From Candidatus Buchananbacteria bacterium RIFCSPLOWO2_01_FULL_39_33 (lineage in GTDB: Bacteria; Patescibacteriota; Patescibacteriia; 2-01-FULL-39-33): 64,000 nt of DNA. Made by a program: the position numbers and the translations under genes. This document shows positions 47,250 to 62,150 of this stretch, in pieces; position 1 is the first letter of the stretch; each line of letters starts with the position of its first letter. The stretch spans positions 6,953 through 70,952 of the forward strand of contig MHIM01000004.1 of NCBI GenBank assembly GCA_001817505.1, written 5' to 3'. Under the pieces are notes generated by a model that ran no database searches, was not told where the DNA came from, and worked only from the letters and a program-made list of their open reading frames with translations.

Positions 47250-48449
47250 TCAATTTATTTTAACAACACCGCTTCTTAAAACAATAATTTTATCATCTTC
47301 TATTTTTATCAGAGTTGAGGGTTCTGATTCTAATTTACCCTGGCCAAGGTAGAAATCTACAGTATTGCTAAAATACCTTTTAGCTTGCTTAATGGTTAAA
47401 GCCGGCTGTCGTCCTTCAGGATTAGCGCTGGGCGCTACCAGCGGACCGGTTTTTTTAAGCAGAGTTAAGAGCCACTGGTTATTAGGCAATCTAAAAGCCA
47501 AAGAATTAGTGCCACGATGCAAGTATTTTAATTTTTTATTGACTGATAGAACAATGCTAATTTGTCCTGGCCAATATTTCTGGAGAATTTTTTTGGTTGG
47601 TAAATCAATTTTTACTCCAAATTTTTTTAAGTCAAATAAAGAACTGATTAAGATAATAAATGGCTTGTCTGGTTTTCTTTTTTTGATTTTATAAATCCTC
47701 TCAATTGTTTTTTTATTTTCTGCCAAGCCGACTAAGCCGTAAAGAGTGTCGGTGGGCATAACGCCAACACCGCCATTTTTTAAAATTTTAATTTGCTGAT
47801 TCAAATATCTTTTAGCCAGATCATTAAGATTAACAACATCACCGGCTGTAAATTGTCCGACTCTGATTCTTTTTAGGCCGGTTAAATAACCGCCAACTCC
47901 CAAATCTTGACCGATATCCTTGGCCAGCGACCTGATATAAACGCCCGGACCAGTAACAACTTTTATTTTTAAATTAGGATATTGATATTTTAAAATTTTA
48001 ATATTTTTGATTTCTACCGGTCGAGATTTTAATTCAATCACTTGGCCGGCTCTGGCTAATTTATAAGCCCGCTGACCGGAAACTTTAATGGCGCTGTAAG
48101 CCGGCGGAGCTTGTTTGATTATACCAGTAAATTTCTTTAAAACATTTTCTACTTCAACTTTATGAACTTTATGAACTTTCAAACTTTTAACTTTCTGGCC
48201 TTCCCCATCATCGGTACTGCTGGTTAATCCCAGTTTTATATCAGCCAAATATTCTTTCTCTTTTTTGACTATTTGGCTTAATTGTTTGGTGGCTTCTCGC
48301 CCCAAACCCACGACTAAAATACCTTCAGCTAAGGGATCAAGTGTGCCAGCGTGACCAACTTTCTGTTCACCAGTAAGTTTTTTTATTTTAGCCATCAAAG
48401 CAAAAGAAGTCGGGCCTTGGGGTTTATAAATTGGAAAAATATTATTCAT
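47250..48449 (-). CDS. truB: TruB tRNA pseudouridine-55 synthase fused to TsaC/Sua5 threonylcarbamoyl-AMP synthase
   Basis: GHAGTLDPLAEG, PPAYSAIKVSG, GVYIRSL; then PTDTLYGL, KRKPDK, WPG, APSAN, PSTLI. Confidence 0.9.
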   Translation of the reverse strand: MNNIFPIYKPQGPTSFALMAKIKKLTGEQKVGHAGTLDPLAEGILVVGLGREATKQLSQIVKKEKEYLADIKLGLTSSTDDGEGQKVKSLKVHKVHKVEVENVLKKFTGIIKQAPPAYSAIKVSGQRAYKLARAGQVIELKSRPVEIKNIKILKYQYPNLKIKVVTGPGVYIRSLAKDIGQDLGVGGYLTGLKRIRVGQFTAGDVVNLNDLAKRYLNQQIKILKNGGVGVMPTDTLYGLVGLAENKKTIERIYKIKKRKPDKPFIILISSLFDLKKFGVKIDLPTKKILQKYWPGQISIVLSVNKKLKYLHRGTNSLAFRLPNNQWLLTLLKKTGPLVAPSANPEGRQPALTIKQAKRYFSNTVDFYLGQGKLESEPSTLIKIEDDKIIVLRSGVVKIN

Positions 48450-55746: not shown

Positions 55747-55748
55747 AG

Positions 55749-55822
55749 TGGGCATATCCCGATTTGAACGGGAGACCTTTCGGATGTGAACCGAATGCTC
55801 TAACCAGCTGAGCTATATACCC
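55749..55822 (-). tRNA. tRNA-Val(CAC)
   Basis: GGGTATATAGCTCAGCTGGTTAGAGCA-TTCGG-TT-CAC-AT-CCGAA...GTTCAAATC...TATGCCCA; no encoded CCA. Confidence 0.93.
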
Positions 55823-56001: not shown

Positions 56002-56029
56002 AAAAAAGCGAATACTTGGTGTATTCGCT
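56002..56029 (-). terminator. intrinsic terminator of the ubiquitin-like operon
   Basis: aaaaaagcgaatac-ttggt-gtattcgct. Confidence 0.7.
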
Positions 56030-56062: not shown

Positions 56063-56635
56063 TTAGAGATCCAAGATGGCTACGATGGCAGCCAGCTTGC
56101 CTTCGGCGGTTAACGGATATTTTACGCCATCAACTTCAATTTCCGGCTTGTCGTCTGCCGGCGCATCGGTGGAAAAATACACCTCAATATCATCGCCATC
56201 GCCGACAAGATCCTCCAAATGGGCAAAGTCGCCATTAACTTTAACTGAAATAACATCATTCGGATTCTTGCCAACCACGTCGCGTAAAATATTGGCGATG
56301 GTATCAGGCGTTGCCAGAGCGTAATCTTGGCCGTCAATGACGCATTCAAGAGCGCCGCCTTCATTGCCTTTAATCTGTTTAAGGACTAAAATGATATCGC
56401 CATCTTCCAGGGGGGTGGTGACAACACTGCCTACATAGCCGTCGGCTTTGTCAACAGCTTCAATATTGGAGAACTTCTTTTTATTAACCCGGACTTCCCG
56501 GTCACGAACTAACTCGGACCAATTGATGCTACCGTTGAATGAAGCGGCTTGCCGGGCTACTTCCATGACTGTAGCGCCATCAGCAACTTCAATATAGATA
56601 ATTTTCCCCGGAACAACCATAATCTTGATATTCAT
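56063..56635 (-). CDS. multi-domain ubiquitin-like (beta-grasp) protein
   Basis: AAGGAG SD before MNIKIMVVPG; domain 1 ends LEDGDIILVLKQIKGN; domain 2 ThiS/MoaD-like ISVKVNG...VGDGDDIEV. Confidence 0.75.
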   Translation of the reverse strand: MNIKIMVVPGKIIYIEVADGATVMEVARQAASFNGSINWSELVRDREVRVNKKKFSNIEAVDKADGYVGSVVTTPLEDGDIILVLKQIKGNEGGALECVIDGQDYALATPDTIANILRDVVGKNPNDVISVKVNGDFAHLEDLVGDGDDIEVYFSTDAPADDKPEIEVDGVKYPLTAEGKLAAIVAILDL

Positions 56636-56705
56636 TGGTATCTCCTTCTTTGGTTTTACTTGGCTGGAAAATTTGAAAATATTACTGGTAAAAAGAACTG
56701 CCGAT

Positions 56706-57449
56706 TTAACCTTCAATAATCATCATTGGCTTGGCGCAAACAATCAATTCCTGCTGATAATTATCCCCCTTAAACCATTTGATCAGCTTCCAAACAGCTA
56801 TGGAAGCAATTAAAGAAACTGTCGGTGAAATTGCCCGATTGGTGCAAGGCGACTCCTCCGCTTCTTCATCGGTGTATAAGGTACCCTCCCATAAACGGAT
56901 ATCTTCCGGACTAAAAGGCAGAATAGCATATACTCGGCCGTTGTCAATACCCATTCTGGTTTCTACCATCAATCTGACATTGAGCCGATATTTAATAGCT
57001 CCTTCCCAGATTTCCCGCCTGACATTCATGGAATCAACCATTAAATAAACTATGCCTTTTAACTTGGTGGCGCTGGTGACTACTTCATTATGGACAGTAA
57101 TTTCAAGGCCGGTTGCTTCTAAAATTATGTCTCTAAGCGCCTCAACTTTTGGGTGGCCAACATCTTTGAGACGATAAACTTGATTGGGCAGATTATGGTC
57201 TTCCACCGCATCAAAATCATAAATATGTATTTTTTTAATTCCCATTTTAGCTAACAGGAAAGCCACATAACTGCCAGTGGCCCCGACACCGATAATATGG
57301 ACTTCATCTTCAAATTTATCGGGTGGAAACAAATCCAGTTGCCGCCAGTAGTCAACTATCACTATGGACGCCGGAACGGTTGGCTCCACTGTCGCTGGAT
57401 GATCCAAAACCTCTTCAGGAGTATCGGTGGCCGCTTGATCTTCTGCCAT
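56706..57449 (-). CDS. ThiF/E1-like activating enzyme
   Basis: RQLD, IIGVGATGS, DFDAVEDHNLPNQ, KVEAL, VDSM..R, ETRMG, candidate catalytic Cys in EESPCT. Confidence 0.9.
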   Translation of the reverse strand: MAEDQAATDTPEEVLDHPATVEPTVPASIVIVDYWRQLDLFPPDKFEDEVHIIGVGATGSYVAFLLAKMGIKKIHIYDFDAVEDHNLPNQVYRLKDVGHPKVEALRDIILEATGLEITVHNEVVTSATKLKGIVYLMVDSMNVRREIWEGAIKYRLNVRLMVETRMGIDNGRVYAILPFSPEDIRLWEGTLYTDEEAEESPCTNRAISPTVSLIASIAVWKLIKWFKGDNYQQELIVCAKPMMIIEG

Positions 57450-58447
57450 TAATCCATCTCCTGATAAACAATCGAGGATCGATTTTTATCATCAAGAGAC
57501 CTTTCAATAACCAGGTCTTCAAAATAATGGCAACTGTCTTTGACCGAACAAAAAAAACATTCATCCCCAGTTGGCTCTTGGCCACAAAGCGGTAAAATAG
57601 CTGAAGCTTGGTTGGTAATCGGCAGCAGCTTGCCATTGTTCTGGCTGTCTCTTCTGCTACCTTTTATCACCTCTTTCTTTTGCCACTTAAGTGAACGAGG
57701 AGCTATTCGAACCCCAACCGAATCCAACAAAGAGTTGGCTTCTTCAAGTTCTCCAATACTATAACCTAGCTGGGAGTAATAACCACCATAATTTCTAGCC
57801 ATAGACACAATTTCCTGAGTGACTTTGGCGTTGATTTCCGCTTTTTGAGTGACTTTGGCATCAATCTCCGCCTGCCATTTGGCTGTTAATTCCTTGTTTA
57901 GAGGACGGCTAATCTGCCAAGGCACGTCTTGCCAGATAATGCCTCTTTGGTAATCATAGAAAGTAAATTCAGCGCGTCCGCTTCGCCCGAAGATGCCCCG
58001 GATGAACCAAGGATTGTGACTGAAATGTTTCATCTGGTCATCGTCTTGGCCAGAGGGACTAGTGGAACTGCTGGGATGGACATGACCCCAAAACATCAGT
58101 CGTTGGGCCAGTTCCTCATTTTCAATAATTAAATCAGTGAACAAATCAGCCAAACCTTCTTCGGTTATTTCAGTAGTCGCTCCATGAACTTCCTGCTGGA
58201 ATAAGAAAATTCCGTCAATCAAAAATCGATAATCGGTAATGGTTAGCACGCTGCCCAGCCAACCGATTTCATCAAACCCGCTTAAATTAGCAATAGTCAG
58301 CATATCAGCATAAGCTTCGGGTGTGATAAAAATACCAGGGACATTATTCCTGTTGATAGTTTCTTGTCTGGTCTCAAATTGATGGGGGGCGAAAGGATCC
58401 GCCCCCTTTTTGCCACCTTGCCAAATATTGCCTTTCCAGTTAGACAT
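57449..58447 (-). CDS. JAB/MPN metallopeptidase with C-terminal Cys cluster
   Basis: DEIGW...WGHVHP.SSTSPSGQDD matches the JAMM E...HxH...S..D motif. Confidence 0.85.
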   Translation of the reverse strand: MSNWKGNIWQGGKKGADPFAPHQFETRQETINRNNVPGIFITPEAYADMLTIANLSGFDEIGWLGSVLTITDYRFLIDGIFLFQQEVHGATTEITEEGLADLFTDLIIENEELAQRLMFWGHVHPSSSTSPSGQDDDQMKHFSHNPWFIRGIFGRSGRAEFTFYDYQRGIIWQDVPWQISRPLNKELTAKWQAEIDAKVTQKAEINAKVTQEIVSMARNYGGYYSQLGYSIGELEEANSLLDSVGVRIAPRSLKWQKKEVIKGSRRDSQNNGKLLPITNQASAILPLCGQEPTGDECFFCSVKDSCHYFEDLVIERSLDDKNRSSIVYQEMD

Positions 58448-59597
58448 TATTTATCTCCTTGGGTTCATTTTCCACTATCGGCCAATGCTTGACAATGTTT
58501 GAACCAGCCCCGTCATCAAAATTAACCGTTTCCAAATATTCTAAAGCCAGCAGGGCAATAGCGGCAAATTGATATTCGGCTATCAGCTGGGCAATTATTT
58601 CCTTGATATTACCCAAGCAGGGTATACCATTTTTATTAATATGCGGGTGTTGGATATTGAAATCATCGCCAGTGCCTTTTCTGGTAGTATTGAAAAATTT
58701 GATGCCGCCGTCTTGGCCATTAAGATAAATTTCAATTCTGAACTTACCGATGTCAAAAGTAACTTTCTTCTGGCCGCCATTCGGCACTTTAGTGGTGATG
58801 TAAATGTGGCCGGTGTCAATGATCACCATATCCTCACTGGCTCTGACACTCTCCACGCCGTCCAAAGATACCAATTTATTATACTCGGCCTCAAAAATGG
58901 CAACATCGGATTGTTCACGCTGTTTTATTTGAAGCAATTGGCGCCTCGAATCGTCAGCGTTGCGAATAATAGCTATCAACTGCTTTTGCAAATTAACCTG
59001 CGTTGATTCCTGATCGGCTAAATTAGCTTCAATTTTTCTGATAAACATTTTATATTGCTGGCGGCAAGCTTCAACATAAAATTTCAGCTGGCGCTGCTGA
59101 CGGTCCTTAGCCAACTGAAGGTCGCGCTGCTGGCGTTCTTGGTCGGGCAAGGTCAACTCAACCACAGTCTGCTCTAAAATCTTGCGGTAAATATCTACAC
59201 CTTTGGTTATGTCACTTATAAAAATCGGCAGATGAATATACAAATTATCACCGATTATTTCGGCTAAAATATAATCTGATTGACCATCAGTAATGCCAAT
59301 GCCGGTATCAGTGAATTTAAAGCAGCTCCAACCATGCGTATTATCAGTAGTCAAGCCGAATAATTTATTGGGTACTTTAGCCGGACCGCTTCCGCCCATA
59401 GCCGCTGACCAGACAAAAATATGAAAACAACCATTACTTAAAGGAATCTGGCAGATATTAGAGAAGTGAACGATAGTTTTACGATTGATAACCGGCAACA
59501 ATATTTCTTCAGTAGCTCTTTTAAAGGCTAAAATTCTTTGGTGAGTAACATTTACCAGACCAGACTGATTAATAACCACCTGGGGAATATTAATCAT
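58440..59597 (-). CDS. E2/UBC-like conjugating domain fused to a coiled coil and a novel N-terminal domain
   Basis: C-terminal FDIGKFRIEI...QHPHINKNGIPCLGN resembles the E2 HPN...C active site. Confidence 0.75.
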   Translation of the reverse strand: MINIPQVVINQSGLVNVTHQRILAFKRATEEILLPVINRKTIVHFSNICQIPLSNGCFHIFVWSAAMGGSGPAKVPNKLFGLTTDNTHGWSCFKFTDTGIGITDGQSDYILAEIIGDNLYIHLPIFISDITKGVDIYRKILEQTVVELTLPDQERQQRDLQLAKDRQQRQLKFYVEACRQQYKMFIRKIEANLADQESTQVNLQKQLIAIIRNADDSRRQLLQIKQREQSDVAIFEAEYNKLVSLDGVESVRASEDMVIIDTGHIYITTKVPNGGQKKVTFDIGKFRIEIYLNGQDGGIKFFNTTRKGTGDDFNIQHPHINKNGIPCLGNIKEIIAQLIAEYQFAAIALLALEYLETVNFDDGAGSNIVKHWPIVENEPKEINNV

Positions 59598-61075
59598 TTT
59601 TTTTGTTCTTCTTCTGGCAACTGTAAAAATTTCAGTGCTTTCTCCAATATCTTTCTGAAGATATTATAATCGTCGTGATAATCTTCGTGGCAAATATCAT
59701 GGAAAATATAGAGATTATTGCCAATAATTTCCGCTATGGGGTTGTCATCGTTGGTTTCGTCAGTAATAACGAAATCGGCCAAGTCGCTGGGTAAAAAACC
59801 AGGATCAGTACAACCAACTCCATAACCCCACATTCTGGCGGCTGTCATGGCATTTTTCTTGGAACCATTTAGCGATGACCAGATTAAGATATTAAAATCG
59901 TCATTGGCGGGTAATGGATGATTACTCCCATGAGGCACAAAAAGTTTAATATTTTTATTAACCGCCGGCAAAATAATCTGCCGAATCAGAGCTTCCACTC
60001 GTTCCAATTTCATTTGACCGACCCAGTTATTGGGCGTGATAAAGAAAACATCCTGGGGACGCAGTCCAGCAGGCGCTTGGCCCAGAGCAATGGGAATATA
60101 ATGTTCCAGTAAGTCAACGCAAAAAGCCAAATCAAAGTCATCTGGAGTATCGTTTAAGCCGAAAATATTAACCACCCGGCCATTAGCCAAATAACCGATA
60201 TTATTCCCTTGGTCTTCGCTCAAATTCAACTCCCGGCCAACAATAATATGAAGTTCATCGTCGGTTTGAGCGCGGGTGGGCAAGCCTTCACTGGCACAAT
60301 ATCTTTCATAAAGCTTGATTCTTTTAACGCCAGTAACATTAGTCCTAAGCCAATCACTTAAATTAATGAAAAGATCTTGCCAGCCATTATTATAATAGCC
60401 ACAGGGAGCAACAATTTCCATTTTAACACCTTGGCGAGCCATCAAATTCTCTCCTTCTTCGGCGGTAGCAGCCATCACAACCGGCAGATAGAGATGGATG
60501 TCATTTATTAACCGGTCATATTCGCTAAAGGTGAAATCATCAGAAATTTTCCTAAAGCCTATAACCTGGCCACCGGGTCGATAACTGACTCGGCCGTCAA
60601 TGACACTTGCCGTGATGCCGGCGCCAATAACCAGGTGAAGCTCATCGTCAACCGGCCTAATATCCCGATCTTCGTCGTCCACAGCTTCATGAATGACAAT
60701 GGTATGCGGATAATATTGACTTAATCGATTTTTCAGAACTTGAAGCTGCTGTTCCCAGTATTCGTTTAAAAAACCATTGGGCGCGGAAATAGCAACGCGC
60801 TCTCTGGGCGCTGCCGGCTCTTGGACAGCCGTCGGCATAAAAGTTACTGTTTCTGAATCCCGGACTGTTAACTTCAAAATACCGGGAATGGAAGTTTCGG
60901 TTTGCGCTGACACGTCAATTTTTAATAAAGTCAAAAATCTTATAATTTTATCTTCTTCCAAAATCAAGCCGTCGTCGCCGTCAATCTCCATATCAATACA
61001 AGGAATATCAATATTGGCCGAGGTAAATATTTTTTCTTCAGTCAAATCAGAAAAAGCCACGAAAAAATTGTTCAT
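59594..61075 (-). CDS. hypothetical repeat-domain protein, first gene of the Ubl operon
   Basis: AAGGAGG SD; internal duplicated DDELH.I.G units; C-terminal domain paralogous to the N-terminus of the E2 protein. Confidence 0.7.
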   Translation of the reverse strand: MNNFFVAFSDLTEEKIFTSANIDIPCIDMEIDGDDGLILEEDKIIRFLTLLKIDVSAQTETSIPGILKLTVRDSETVTFMPTAVQEPAAPRERVAISAPNGFLNEYWEQQLQVLKNRLSQYYPHTIVIHEAVDDEDRDIRPVDDELHLVIGAGITASVIDGRVSYRPGGQVIGFRKISDDFTFSEYDRLINDIHLYLPVVMAATAEEGENLMARQGVKMEIVAPCGYYNNGWQDLFINLSDWLRTNVTGVKRIKLYERYCASEGLPTRAQTDDELHIIVGRELNLSEDQGNNIGYLANGRVVNIFGLNDTPDDFDLAFCVDLLEHYIPIALGQAPAGLRPQDVFFITPNNWVGQMKLERVEALIRQIILPAVNKNIKLFVPHGSNHPLPANDDFNILIWSSLNGSKKNAMTAARMWGYGVGCTDPGFLPSDLADFVITDETNDDNPIAEIIGNNLYIFHDICHEDYHDDYNIFRKILEKALKFLQLPEEEQKK

Positions 61076-61526: not shown

Positions 61527-62150
61527 TTATTGTTTTCTGGCTTTATTGCTTTTTGCCTCCTGATAATATTTATCCACTTGCTCCCAATTAATGACTTGAA
61601 AAAAATTCTCAATGTAGGCCGGCCGGCGGTTCTGGTATTTCAAATAATAAGCGTGCTCCCAGAGGTCTAATAATAAAATCGGATCTTGACCAACGCTCAA
61701 AGGCGTATCCTGATTAGGCGTAGTTATAATTTCTAATTCACCATCATTTAAAATCAGCCAAGACCAGCCGCTGCCGAATAATCTGGCAGAAGCGTCAGTG
61801 AACTGCTTTTGGAATTCTTCAAAACCGCCGAATTTTTCAGCCAGGGCTTTGGCGATTTCGCCACCAACTGGCACATCTTTTTTCAATAATTTCCAAAACA
61901 GAGCATGATTGGCCGAACCGCCGCCATTATTTTTGACCGGCCGACAGATTTCGGCCGGTAAATCGTTAAGGTTTTTTAAAAGTTCAACAATCGGCTGGCT
62001 TTGTAAGTGTTCGTATTTTTCTAAAGCCGTATTTAACTTGTCCACATAACCTGCGTAATGCTTATCGTGATGAATCTCCATAGTCAGCTTATCAATAAAT
62101 GGCTCTAAGGCGTCATAAGCGTAGTCCAACGCTTCGGCTTGGTATTTCAT
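61527..62150 (-). CDS. sodA: Fe/Mn superoxide dismutase
   Basis: ALEP.I...TMEIHHDKH, NNGGG..NH..FW, FGSGW, DLWEHAYYL.YQN.R. Confidence 0.93.
   Translation of the reverse strand: MKYQAEALDYAYDALEPFIDKLTMEIHHDKHYAGYVDKLNTALEKYEHLQSQPIVELLKNLNDLPAEICRPVKNNGGGSANHALFWKLLKKDVPVGGEIAKALAEKFGGFEEFQKQFTDASARLFGSGWSWLILNDGELEIITTPNQDTPLSVGQDPILLLDLWEHAYYLKYQNRRPAYIENFFQVINWEQVDKYYQEAKSNKARKQ

What the first reader, a model, noticed from the sequence alone, without database searches (positions are those of the whole stretch)
56063..61075. Five-gene ubiquitin-like conjugation operon (repeat protein, E2, JAB, E1, multi-Ubl) in a CPR-like genome
Seen: co-oriented genes, the first four overlapping or abutting, with SD motifs and a terminator. 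They carry an E2-like HPH..G.PCLGN site, a JAMM E/HxH/SxxD motif, a ThiF nucleotide-binding motif with a candidate catalytic Cys and no CxxC zinc pairs, and a beta-grasp protein. No thiamine, molybdopterin or sulfur-relay genes are adjacent. Established knowledge: bacterial E1-E2-JAB-Ubl operons (BilABCD, Bub types, CBASS Cap2/Cap3) conjugate proteins, some for antiphage defence. Inference: a protein-conjugation system of a different architecture, with a coiled-coil E2 and an extra paralogous repeat protein, next to a tRNA gene. It may act in defence or proteostasis.
Basis: partly seen in the sequence, partly recalled or inferred. Interest (0 to 1): 0.87.

Follow-up and report, generated by a model that had tools for sequence, protein, structure and literature searches.

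The report
Four-part CPR–phage ubiquitin-like tagging operon
This small-genome bacterium carries genes for a ubiquitin-like tag and for enzymes predicted to trim, activate and attach it; the supposed fifth gene is the broken-off front of the attaching enzyme, and the set belongs to a large unnamed family shared with phages that likely tags proteins by a route distinct from known bacterial systems.

Summary
The operon is real, but it has four parts, not five. The 'repeat protein' (59594-61075) and the E2 (58440-59597) are the two halves of one gene that is fused in seven relatives. Here it is one base short, which leaves an ATGA stop/start overlap; seven runs' contigs show the same letters.

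The E2 domain models as a UBC fold with an invariant Cys (61/61 aligned). The minimal E1 keeps its Cys (35/35) and has no CxxC. The JAMM motif is intact (6/6). The tag starts at 56635, and its conjugable Gly is internal (Gly90|Asn91). Of 35 family tags, 24 have Gly|Asn, some as head-to-tail polyubiquitin-like precursors.

The E2 profile finds 4,915 protein clusters, matches no prokaryotic E2 family, and occurs in both bacterial and viral contigs. It fails the defining tests for Bil, Bub, PRTRC, CBASS and sulfur relays. Flanks are housekeeping genes, so defence is unsupported by context. Conjugation and targets are untested.

This scan noted the same family before on other DNA (three notes). 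My ten paper searches found no description.

The parts
59594..61075 (-). N-terminal half of the E2 gene (493 aa): a 70-aa 'A' domain plus three alpha/beta repeats (two degenerate, one full 'R' domain). No invariant catalytic residue.
   Evidence: Aligns to P0048 1-494 at 63%. Model pLDDT 86.9 shows three repeats of similar topology. R occurs in 146 of 197 family E2 sequences in 1-5 copies, A in 81 of 197. Fold matches are weak, flavodoxin/GATase-like, Z up to 6.4.
59594..59604 (-). Split point: eight A followed by TGA, with an overlapping ATG (ATGA); one base short of the fused frame of relatives, which have Leu where the downstream ORF starts with Met
   Evidence: Same letters and no indel in contigs of 7 of 8 runs laid; the eighth does not cover it.
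58440..59597 (-). C-terminal half of the E2 gene (385 aa): R domain (about 29-145), 76-residue coiled-coil helix (152-227), UBC-fold E2 domain (229-375) with H317-P318-H319 and Cys327
   Evidence: Model pLDDT 86. All listed Foldseek PDB hits are E2s, best E 7.8e-3. VIA Z 7.5, rmsd 3.9, 118 residues to UbcH10. Cys invariant in 61/61 and in 96% of 163 domains.
57449..58447 (-). JAB/JAMM metalloprotease (332 aa) with a variable C-terminal tail
   Evidence: E60, H122, H124, S132, D135 invariant in 6/6. Library hits are weak only: Prok-JAB E 0.2, PADLOC JAB E 0.005.
56706..57449 (-). Minimal single-domain ThiF-type E1 (247 aa) with crossover-loop Cys202 and no zinc CxxC pairs
   Evidence: PF00899 E 8e-21. 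Cys202 aligns with the crossover-loop Cys of E. coli ThiF, 1zud. Invariant in 35/35; no CxxC in 0 of 35 rows.
56063..56635 (-). Ubl precursor (190 aa): unit 1 (residues 1-90, ending KQIKG; 56366-56635), then Asn91 and a 100-aa extension (a degenerate second beta-grasp-like unit and a truncated third) with no Gly motif
   Evidence: The profile of 23 family units hits SAMP2 (E 2.5e-6) and ThiS (E 0.005) in PDB; 5 of 23 units hit Pfam ThiS. Gly|Asn in 24 of 35 family Ubls. Unit 2 scores E 3e-16 on a profile that included it but only probability 9.9 on an independent one.
56007..56029 (-). Intrinsic terminator-like hairpin with U-tract closing the operon
   Evidence: z -3.8 against shuffles
55748..55822 (-). 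tRNA-Val(CAC), downstream neighbour, probably not part of the system
   Evidence: same position in G001 and G003; absent together with the operon at this site in G002

Best explanation
The locus encodes a Ubl, a minimal E1, a JAMM protease and a coiled-coil E2 whose gene is split in two here, and these likely form a self-contained cascade that covalently attaches the Ubl to target proteins through cysteine thioesters. Step 1 (inferred): the JAB cuts the precursor after Gly90, releasing a 90-residue tag and a 100-residue pro-piece. Step 2 (inferred from ThiF-family chemistry): a homodimeric E1 adenylates Gly90 and takes it on Cys202. Step 3 (inferred): the tag moves to E2 Cys327. Step 4 (inferred, weakest): with no E3 gene, the variable A/R modules on the coiled-coil arm pick the target, and the JAB can reverse the link. 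In this genome the front modules are probably made as a separate, translationally coupled chain, while the E2 half keeps one R domain, the coil and the active site. The most likely biological setting is conflict between small cells, their phages and hosts, because the family moves between viral and cellular genomes and is patchy among kin. Shown: genes, folds, conserved residues, linkage, the split. Not shown: any activity or target.
For: UBC fold and aligned catalytic Cys. Cys invariant in E2 (61/61) and E1 (35/35); JAMM residues 6/6. Among loci found by the E1 alone, an E2 lies adjacent in 19 of 20 genome loci and 14 of 16 viral loci (three of those weak); JAB and Ubl each occur in 14 of 16 viral loci. 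Of 24 distinct genome loci, 18 have a JAB and 21 a Ubl; three are cut by contig ends. Gly|Asn ends 24 of 35 Ubls, and head-to-tail precursors repeat the motif at every unit boundary (L046, L047, L058, L060), which marks the cut site. Front modules vary from 0 to 5 R copies and other repeats are inserted in some members, while the E2 end is fixed. No sulfur-pathway neighbour recurs among 107 flanking proteins. Viral and genome E1s are interleaved: 7 label changes, at least 3 forced.
Against: No experiment. The E2 fold scores are modest (Foldseek E 7.8e-3, none at 0.001; VIA Z 7.5 ties with coiled-coil rows). The JAB has only weak library hits. The Ubl is closest to SAMP2/ThiS, and JAB trimming also serves sulfur-carrier systems (recalled). 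Five genome loci have E2 and E1 adjacent with no JAB hit (L015, L016, L019, L020, L044), and 3 of 35 Ubls have no terminal Gly. The E2 ORF has no AGGAG site, so its translation is uncertain. No defence gene recurs nearby and the window's flanks are housekeeping, so the conflict role rests on distribution alone. Loci were gathered with patterns from close relatives and are not a random sample.
Confidence: 0.68

Rival explanations
1. Same cascade, but the acceptor is not a protein lysine: a protein N-terminus, a hydroxyl, a lipid or small molecule, or only the E2 arm itself.
For: His replaces the canonical Asn: xPH in 145 of 163 domains, HPH in 71. PMC9527308 (passages) says UBE2W, the one human E2 with His there, modifies N-termini. 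The minimal homodimeric-type E1 with a crossover-loop Cys resembles ATG7/Cap2 as described in 10.1101/2022.03.31.486616 (passages).
Against: One residue of analogy across very distant proteins. No membrane anchor or lipid enzyme recurs nearby.
Confidence: 0.14
2. Sulfur-carrier or small-molecule pathway: the JAB exposes Gly, E1 adenylates it, and the Ubl is thiocarboxylated; the E2-like domain is a partner, not a conjugase.
For: Ubl profile nearest to SAMP2/ThiS/MoaD; E1 nearest to ThiF; a cysteine desulfurase-family gene and MnmA exist elsewhere in the genome.
Against: E2 fold with invariant Cys tightly linked to the E1. No ThiG over cut-off and no MoaE found in a 97% complete genome. No sulfurtransferase among neighbours. 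Single Gly in most members. Many copies are viral.
Confidence: 0.08
3. The family is functional, but this copy is decaying; the split is the first lesion.
For: All seven long relatives are fused. The downstream ORF lacks a ribosome-binding site. A same-genus genome has lost the operon at this site.
Against: Both halves are open over their whole length and equally conserved against P0048 (63% and 64%). All catalytic residues are kept. The lesion leaves an ATGA overlap at a domain boundary. Strain variants P0001 and P0018 keep the same start.
Confidence: 0.1

Closest known systems
Bil type I/II (BilABCD; Iyer 2006 class 6c for type II)
   Same: Separate Ubl, E2, JAB and E1 genes, no E3; the JAB exposes a Gly; Cys on E1 and E2
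   Different: BilD is IAD-AAD with an inserted CYS domain and a zinc site at the E2 interface; type II BilB has a CEHH motif; order Ubl-E2-DUB-E1. Here the E1 is one 247-aa domain without zinc pairs, the E2 has PH-x-C-L-G-N on a long coiled-coil arm with repeats, and the order is E2-JAB-E1-Ubl (some viral members use Ubl-E2-JAB-E1).
Bub type I/II (6E/DUF6527)
   Same: The JAB cleaves inside a precursor right after the Ubl Gly; multi-unit Ubls
   Different: Bub works through Tyr/Ser oxyesters, has BubAB, BubCD or BubBD fusions and a DUF6527 protease. None of these is seen here; both cysteines are invariant.
PRTRC / Iyer class 6d
   Same: Stand-alone Ubl, JAB, E1 and E2 genes; mobile
   Different: The 6d E2 lacks the upstream His and has a His after the Cys; here the reverse. 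PRTRC_ThiF scores 32 bits against a cut-off of 145.
Canonical UBC E2 enzymes (PF00179), UBE2W in particular
   Same: Fold; HP-x motif about eight residues before the Cys; 2 of 74 family members hit PF00179 (E 3e-5, 7e-5)
   Different: His for Asn; below the Pfam cut-off; long N-terminal arm; works with a minimal E1
SAMP/UbaA/JAMM and ThiS/ThiF
   Same: Ubl sequence and minimal E1 are nearest to these
   Different: Dedicated E2; Gly|Asn instead of a Gly-Gly end; no zinc pairs

Membership tests
Bil type I/II | E1 with IAD + AAD + inserted CYS domain | tested here: not met
   247-aa single ThiF domain
Bil type I/II | Four-Cys zinc site in E1 (shown for type II) | tested here: not met
   0 of 35 E1 rows hold CxxC
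Bil type II | CEHH motif in E2 | tested here: not met
   Motif is PH..G..C[LF]GN with no conserved E/H/H after the Cys
Bil type I/II | JAB that exposes the Ubl Gly | tested here: inconclusive
   Motif and Gly|Asn boundary present; cleavage not assayed
Bil type I/II | Antiphage conjugation to a tail protein | not testable with these tools
   Needs infection assays
Bub type I/II | E1 and E2 lack catalytic Cys (oxyester chemistry) | tested here: not met
   Cys invariant in both
Bub type I/II | DUF6527 BubE gene and BubAB/BubCD/BubBD fusions | tested here: not met
   No such Pfam hit in the operon or 107 flanking proteins; genes are separate
PRTRC / class 6d | E2 without upstream His, with His after the Cys; PRTRC models over cut-off | tested here: not met
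   no NCBIfam E2 model among 61 members
Type II CBASS | CD-NTase and E2-E1 fusion Cap2 | tested here: not met
   No CD-NTase among the flanking genes scanned; PADLOC E1-E2 models match only the E1 nucleotide-binding part
Prok-E2 families A-E (Pfam) | Match to a prokaryotic E2 profile | tested here: not met
   0 of 74 representatives and 0 of 10 domains; PADLOC E2 models hit single members of 61 at E 0.003-0.004
UBC/E2 superfamily | UBC fold with Cys at the canonical place | tested here: met
   (predicted model; modest scores, consistent hits)
UBC/E2 superfamily (canonical) | HPN triad | tested here: not met
   His 93%, Asn 2% at that column of 163 domains
ThiS-ThiF / MoaD-MoeB sulfur relay | Gly-Gly end and downstream ThiG or MoaE | tested here: not met
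   Gly-Gly in 4 of 35 Ubls, not in the window; ThiG under cut-off, MoaE not found in a 97% complete genome
Beta-grasp Ubl | Beta-grasp fold ending in Gly | tested here: met
   Family profile to SAMP2 E 2.5e-6 with the terminal Gly aligned; no structure model of the window's own Ubl was made

The most novel reading that the evidence does not exclude
CPR bacteria and phages share a large, undescribed ubiquitin system with polyubiquitin-like precursors and an E2 nearer to canonical UBCs than to any catalogued prokaryotic E2. Its swappable front modules act as a built-in E3, and its His-for-Asn active site may tag N-termini or other non-lysine acceptors. Viruses would then own, not merely suffer, ubiquitin-like tagging, and minimal cells would keep it on the chromosome.
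Probability: 0.3. Interest if true: 0.9.

Novelty: new variant of a known kind. Interest (0 to 1): 0.72.

Why it matters
Bacterial ubiquitin-like conjugation is known from a few host-encoded families. This family has thousands of divergent members and no database model. It sits in genomes of about 1 Mb and in phages, and all four parts are small enough to reconstitute. If active, it gives a minimal Cys-based E1-E2 pair, an E3-free way of choosing targets that can be tested by swapping modules, and a new data point on where canonical E2s came from. The natural split in this genome is a ready-made test of whether the front modules work in trans.

Tried and rejected
Five-component reading: rejected (fused in relatives). 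Assembly error at the split: unlikely, since contigs from 7 runs agree; five of those may be the source of this DNA, they may share a site, and contigs drop rare variants. Conserved programmed frameshift: rejected as a family trait. Relatives are in frame and no stimulatory fold follows the A-run (z -0.46); low-level slippage is not excluded. No near-identical fused protein was found among longer proteins (weak evidence).

Prophage or island: no phage or integrase gene among the 26 flanking ORFs scanned between 26.8 and 64 kb (ORFs before 25 kb were not scanned). No flanking repeats. GC and GC3 match the other genes. tRNA targeting: tRNA-Val follows the operon in two genera, but most loci lack it.

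Complex prediction of E1 dimer + Ubl + E2: no verdict. No RNA holder listed. Fold of the A/R modules: no specific match; A was barely tested. The single E2 domain found nothing in viral contigs or cultured phages; E1 queries did.

Rows dropped: L027, L028, L038/L018, L040 and L042 duplicate earlier loci and were counted once in the 24-locus and 35-Ubl counts. L058 and L062 have identical E1s. L018, L040, L042, L044 and L045 were left out of the tree. Gly invariance in alignment A7 is an artefact of trimming at that Gly and was not used. Some record titles are unreliable: L027 is titled Gammaproteobacteria but is the same locus as a same-genus genome's.

Paper searches that found no description of this family; one search concerned UBE2W.
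Full report
What is there. Five minus-strand ORFs lie between sodA (61527-62150) and tRNA-Val/uvrB/uvrA/uvrC, closed by a terminator at 56007-56029. The genome is 973 kb and 97% complete. Close relatives of the E1 and E2 carry the record title Ca. Buchananbacteria, which fits a CPR cell. GC and GC3 match the other genes. Each part is single-copy in the genome.

Four genes, not five. The 493-aa and 385-aa ORFs align end to end to one 886-aa protein (P0048, residues 1-494 and 495-883, 63-64%). The two same-genus genomes with the operon at this site encode fused proteins of 751 and 785 aa, and all seven longer relatives found are fused. The window is one base short at 59594-59604. Relatives have Leu where the downstream ORF now starts with Met, so loss of one base made both the TGA and the overlapping ATG. 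Contigs of 7 of 8 runs laid show the same letters with no indel; the eighth has no cover. Five of those runs may be the source of this DNA. The two proteins are on record on 16 and 18 contigs. The downstream ORF alone lacks an AGGAG site. I read this as a recent fission with translational coupling; slippage or decay remain possible.

The E2. The model (pLDDT 86) has an R domain, a 76-residue helix and a C-terminal domain. Every listed Foldseek PDB hit is an E2, though none reaches E 0.001. VIA gives Z 7.5 over residues 229-375, tied with coiled-coil rows for the helix. A sequence profile independently ranks UBE2L3 first and aligns HP..G.C (E 0.31). The profile of ten domains finds 4,915 clusters at E 0.001 and 2,355 at 1e-10 among 1.84 billion; I examined only the best 150. 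Cys is 96% and His 93% conserved over 163 domains. Of 74 members scanned, none hits a Prok-E2 family and two hit canonical UQ_con below cut-off. NCBIfam has no E2 match for 61 members. The front end varies: R in 146 of 197 sequences, in 1-5 copies; A in 81; other repeats in some. The front-half model shows A plus three repeats, with only generic alpha/beta matches. Target selection by these modules is inference.

E1, JAB, Ubl. The E1 is a single ThiF domain with Cys202 at the ThiF crossover-loop position, invariant in 35 of 35, and no CxxC in any row. The JAMM residues are invariant in 6 of 6, but library hits are weak. The Ubl starts at 56635. A profile of 23 units hits SAMP2 at E 2.5e-6. Of 35 Ubl-bearing loci including the window, 24 have Gly|Asn, 4 Gly|Gly, 2 Gly|Ala, 2 Gly-Ser and 3 no Gly. 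Several encode two or three units head to tail with the motif at each boundary, like polyubiquitin. In the window Gly90 is followed by 100 residues without the motif. The same layout holds in the five genome loci that form a supported E1 clade with the window. Without JAB cleavage this Ubl could not be activated at a Gly.

Distribution. The E2 was found in 7 of 101 related genomes and 4 of 401 phylum-wide genomes, the window's own included. One of three other same-genus genomes lacks both operon and tRNA at the site. E1 patterns gave 20 genome and 16 viral loci. An E2 is adjacent in 19 of 20 and 14 of 16, three viral hits being weak. Gene order is E2-JAB-E1-Ubl in most, Ubl-E2-JAB-E1 in six. 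Five genome loci show no JAB. On a 43-row E1 tree the viral and genome rows are interleaved (7 changes, at least 3 forced), and two members of the window's own family fall in another clade. The tree is unrooted, so no donor is claimed. Cultured phages hold related E1s (80 records). Xanthomonas phage PhiXhv-12 has a Gly-Gly Ubl candidate, a coiled-coil HPH..CLG protein (profile E 0.019, weak) and an E1 in a row. The crAss-like and Flavobacterium phages examined have a parallel set whose E2 candidate does not match my profile. The ESM Atlas look-alikes of the E2 domain are mostly viral clusters (0.94). Among 107 flanking proteins no defence, sulfur or proteolysis family recurs; viral loci sit near helicase, ligase, polymerase and nucleotide genes.

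Mechanism and rivals. The best reading is JAB trimming, E1 adenylation and thioester, transfer to E2 Cys327, and E3-free conjugation directed by the front modules (0.68). His for Asn, as in UBE2W, raises a non-lysine acceptor (0.14). A sulfur relay is disfavoured: no MoaE, and ThiG under cut-off, although a desulfurase and MnmA are present (0.08). Decay of this copy: 0.10. No proteasome subunit was found, which argues against tagging for proteasomal degradation. A conflict role rests on patchiness and viral carriage only.

Known systems and literature. It works like Bil but fails the defining features of Bil, Bub, PRTRC/6d, CBASS and ThiS/MoaD systems (see membership tests). What I saw of each paper: the first part of the text of PMC11601596 (1 of 7), 10.1101/2023.09.26.559546 (1 of 7) and PMC11601603 (1 of 6); passages of PMC1779556, 10.1101/2022.03.31.486616, PMC9527308, PMC13444090, PMC7824862, PMC11354881 and PMC12660748; otherwise search listings. 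No supplements were read, and operon tables there could list members. Searches found no description of the family; the library lacks most subscription papers. Three earlier notes of this scan describe what appears to be the same family on other DNA. My reading of the fusion and the Gly-Asn end was recorded before seeing them, and they are not independent evidence.

Verdict. A real, undescribed family of a known kind of system; interest 0.72. The window adds two particulars: an internal processing site with a conserved C-terminal extension, and a natural split of the E2 arm.

Noticed in passing
window 47253-48449 (-): One ORF carries both TruB and Sua5/TsaC domains.
   Followed up: no
window 57449-57600 (-): The JAB tail has a Cys cluster (C..C-x-x-C..C-H) that the five aligned relatives lack, plus a short tandem duplication at 57816-57871.
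   Followed up: partly
P0002, P0030: Metagenome proteins that are partly identical to the window's E2 or JAB and partly different; P0002 starts like P0048. They are recombinants or chimeric assemblies with a relative.
   Followed up: partly
L015, L016, L019, L020, L044: JAB-less E2-E1 operons; where a Ubl was seen it ends in Gly-Ser or Ser-Ser, so activation may not need a terminal Gly or uses a protease in trans.
   Followed up: partly
L025 2736-6612 (Xanthomonas phage PhiXhv-12): Cultured jumbo phage with Ubl(GG), coiled-coil HPH..CLG protein and E1 in a row, annotated as hypothetical or thiamine biosynthesis.
   Followed up: partly
L023, L024, L026 (crAss-like and Flavobacterium phages): Conserved four-gene run upstream of and including the 'ThiF': a protein with an internal K-S-G motif, a His/Cys protein, a JAB-motif protein and the E1. 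A parallel system with a different E2 candidate.
   Followed up: partly
P0037, P0039, L037, L052, L053, L054: Tandem E2 domains in one chain or two adjacent E2 genes.
   Followed up: no
L033 6757-7755, L036 6010-6981: Ubl extensions include a coiled coil; in L033 it ends in a short helical segment that resembles a SAP/HeH motif (by eye, recalled).
   Followed up: no
L013, L014: In another genus of the same family the operon, from a different E1 clade, is also followed by a tRNA-Val (GAC).
   Followed up: partly
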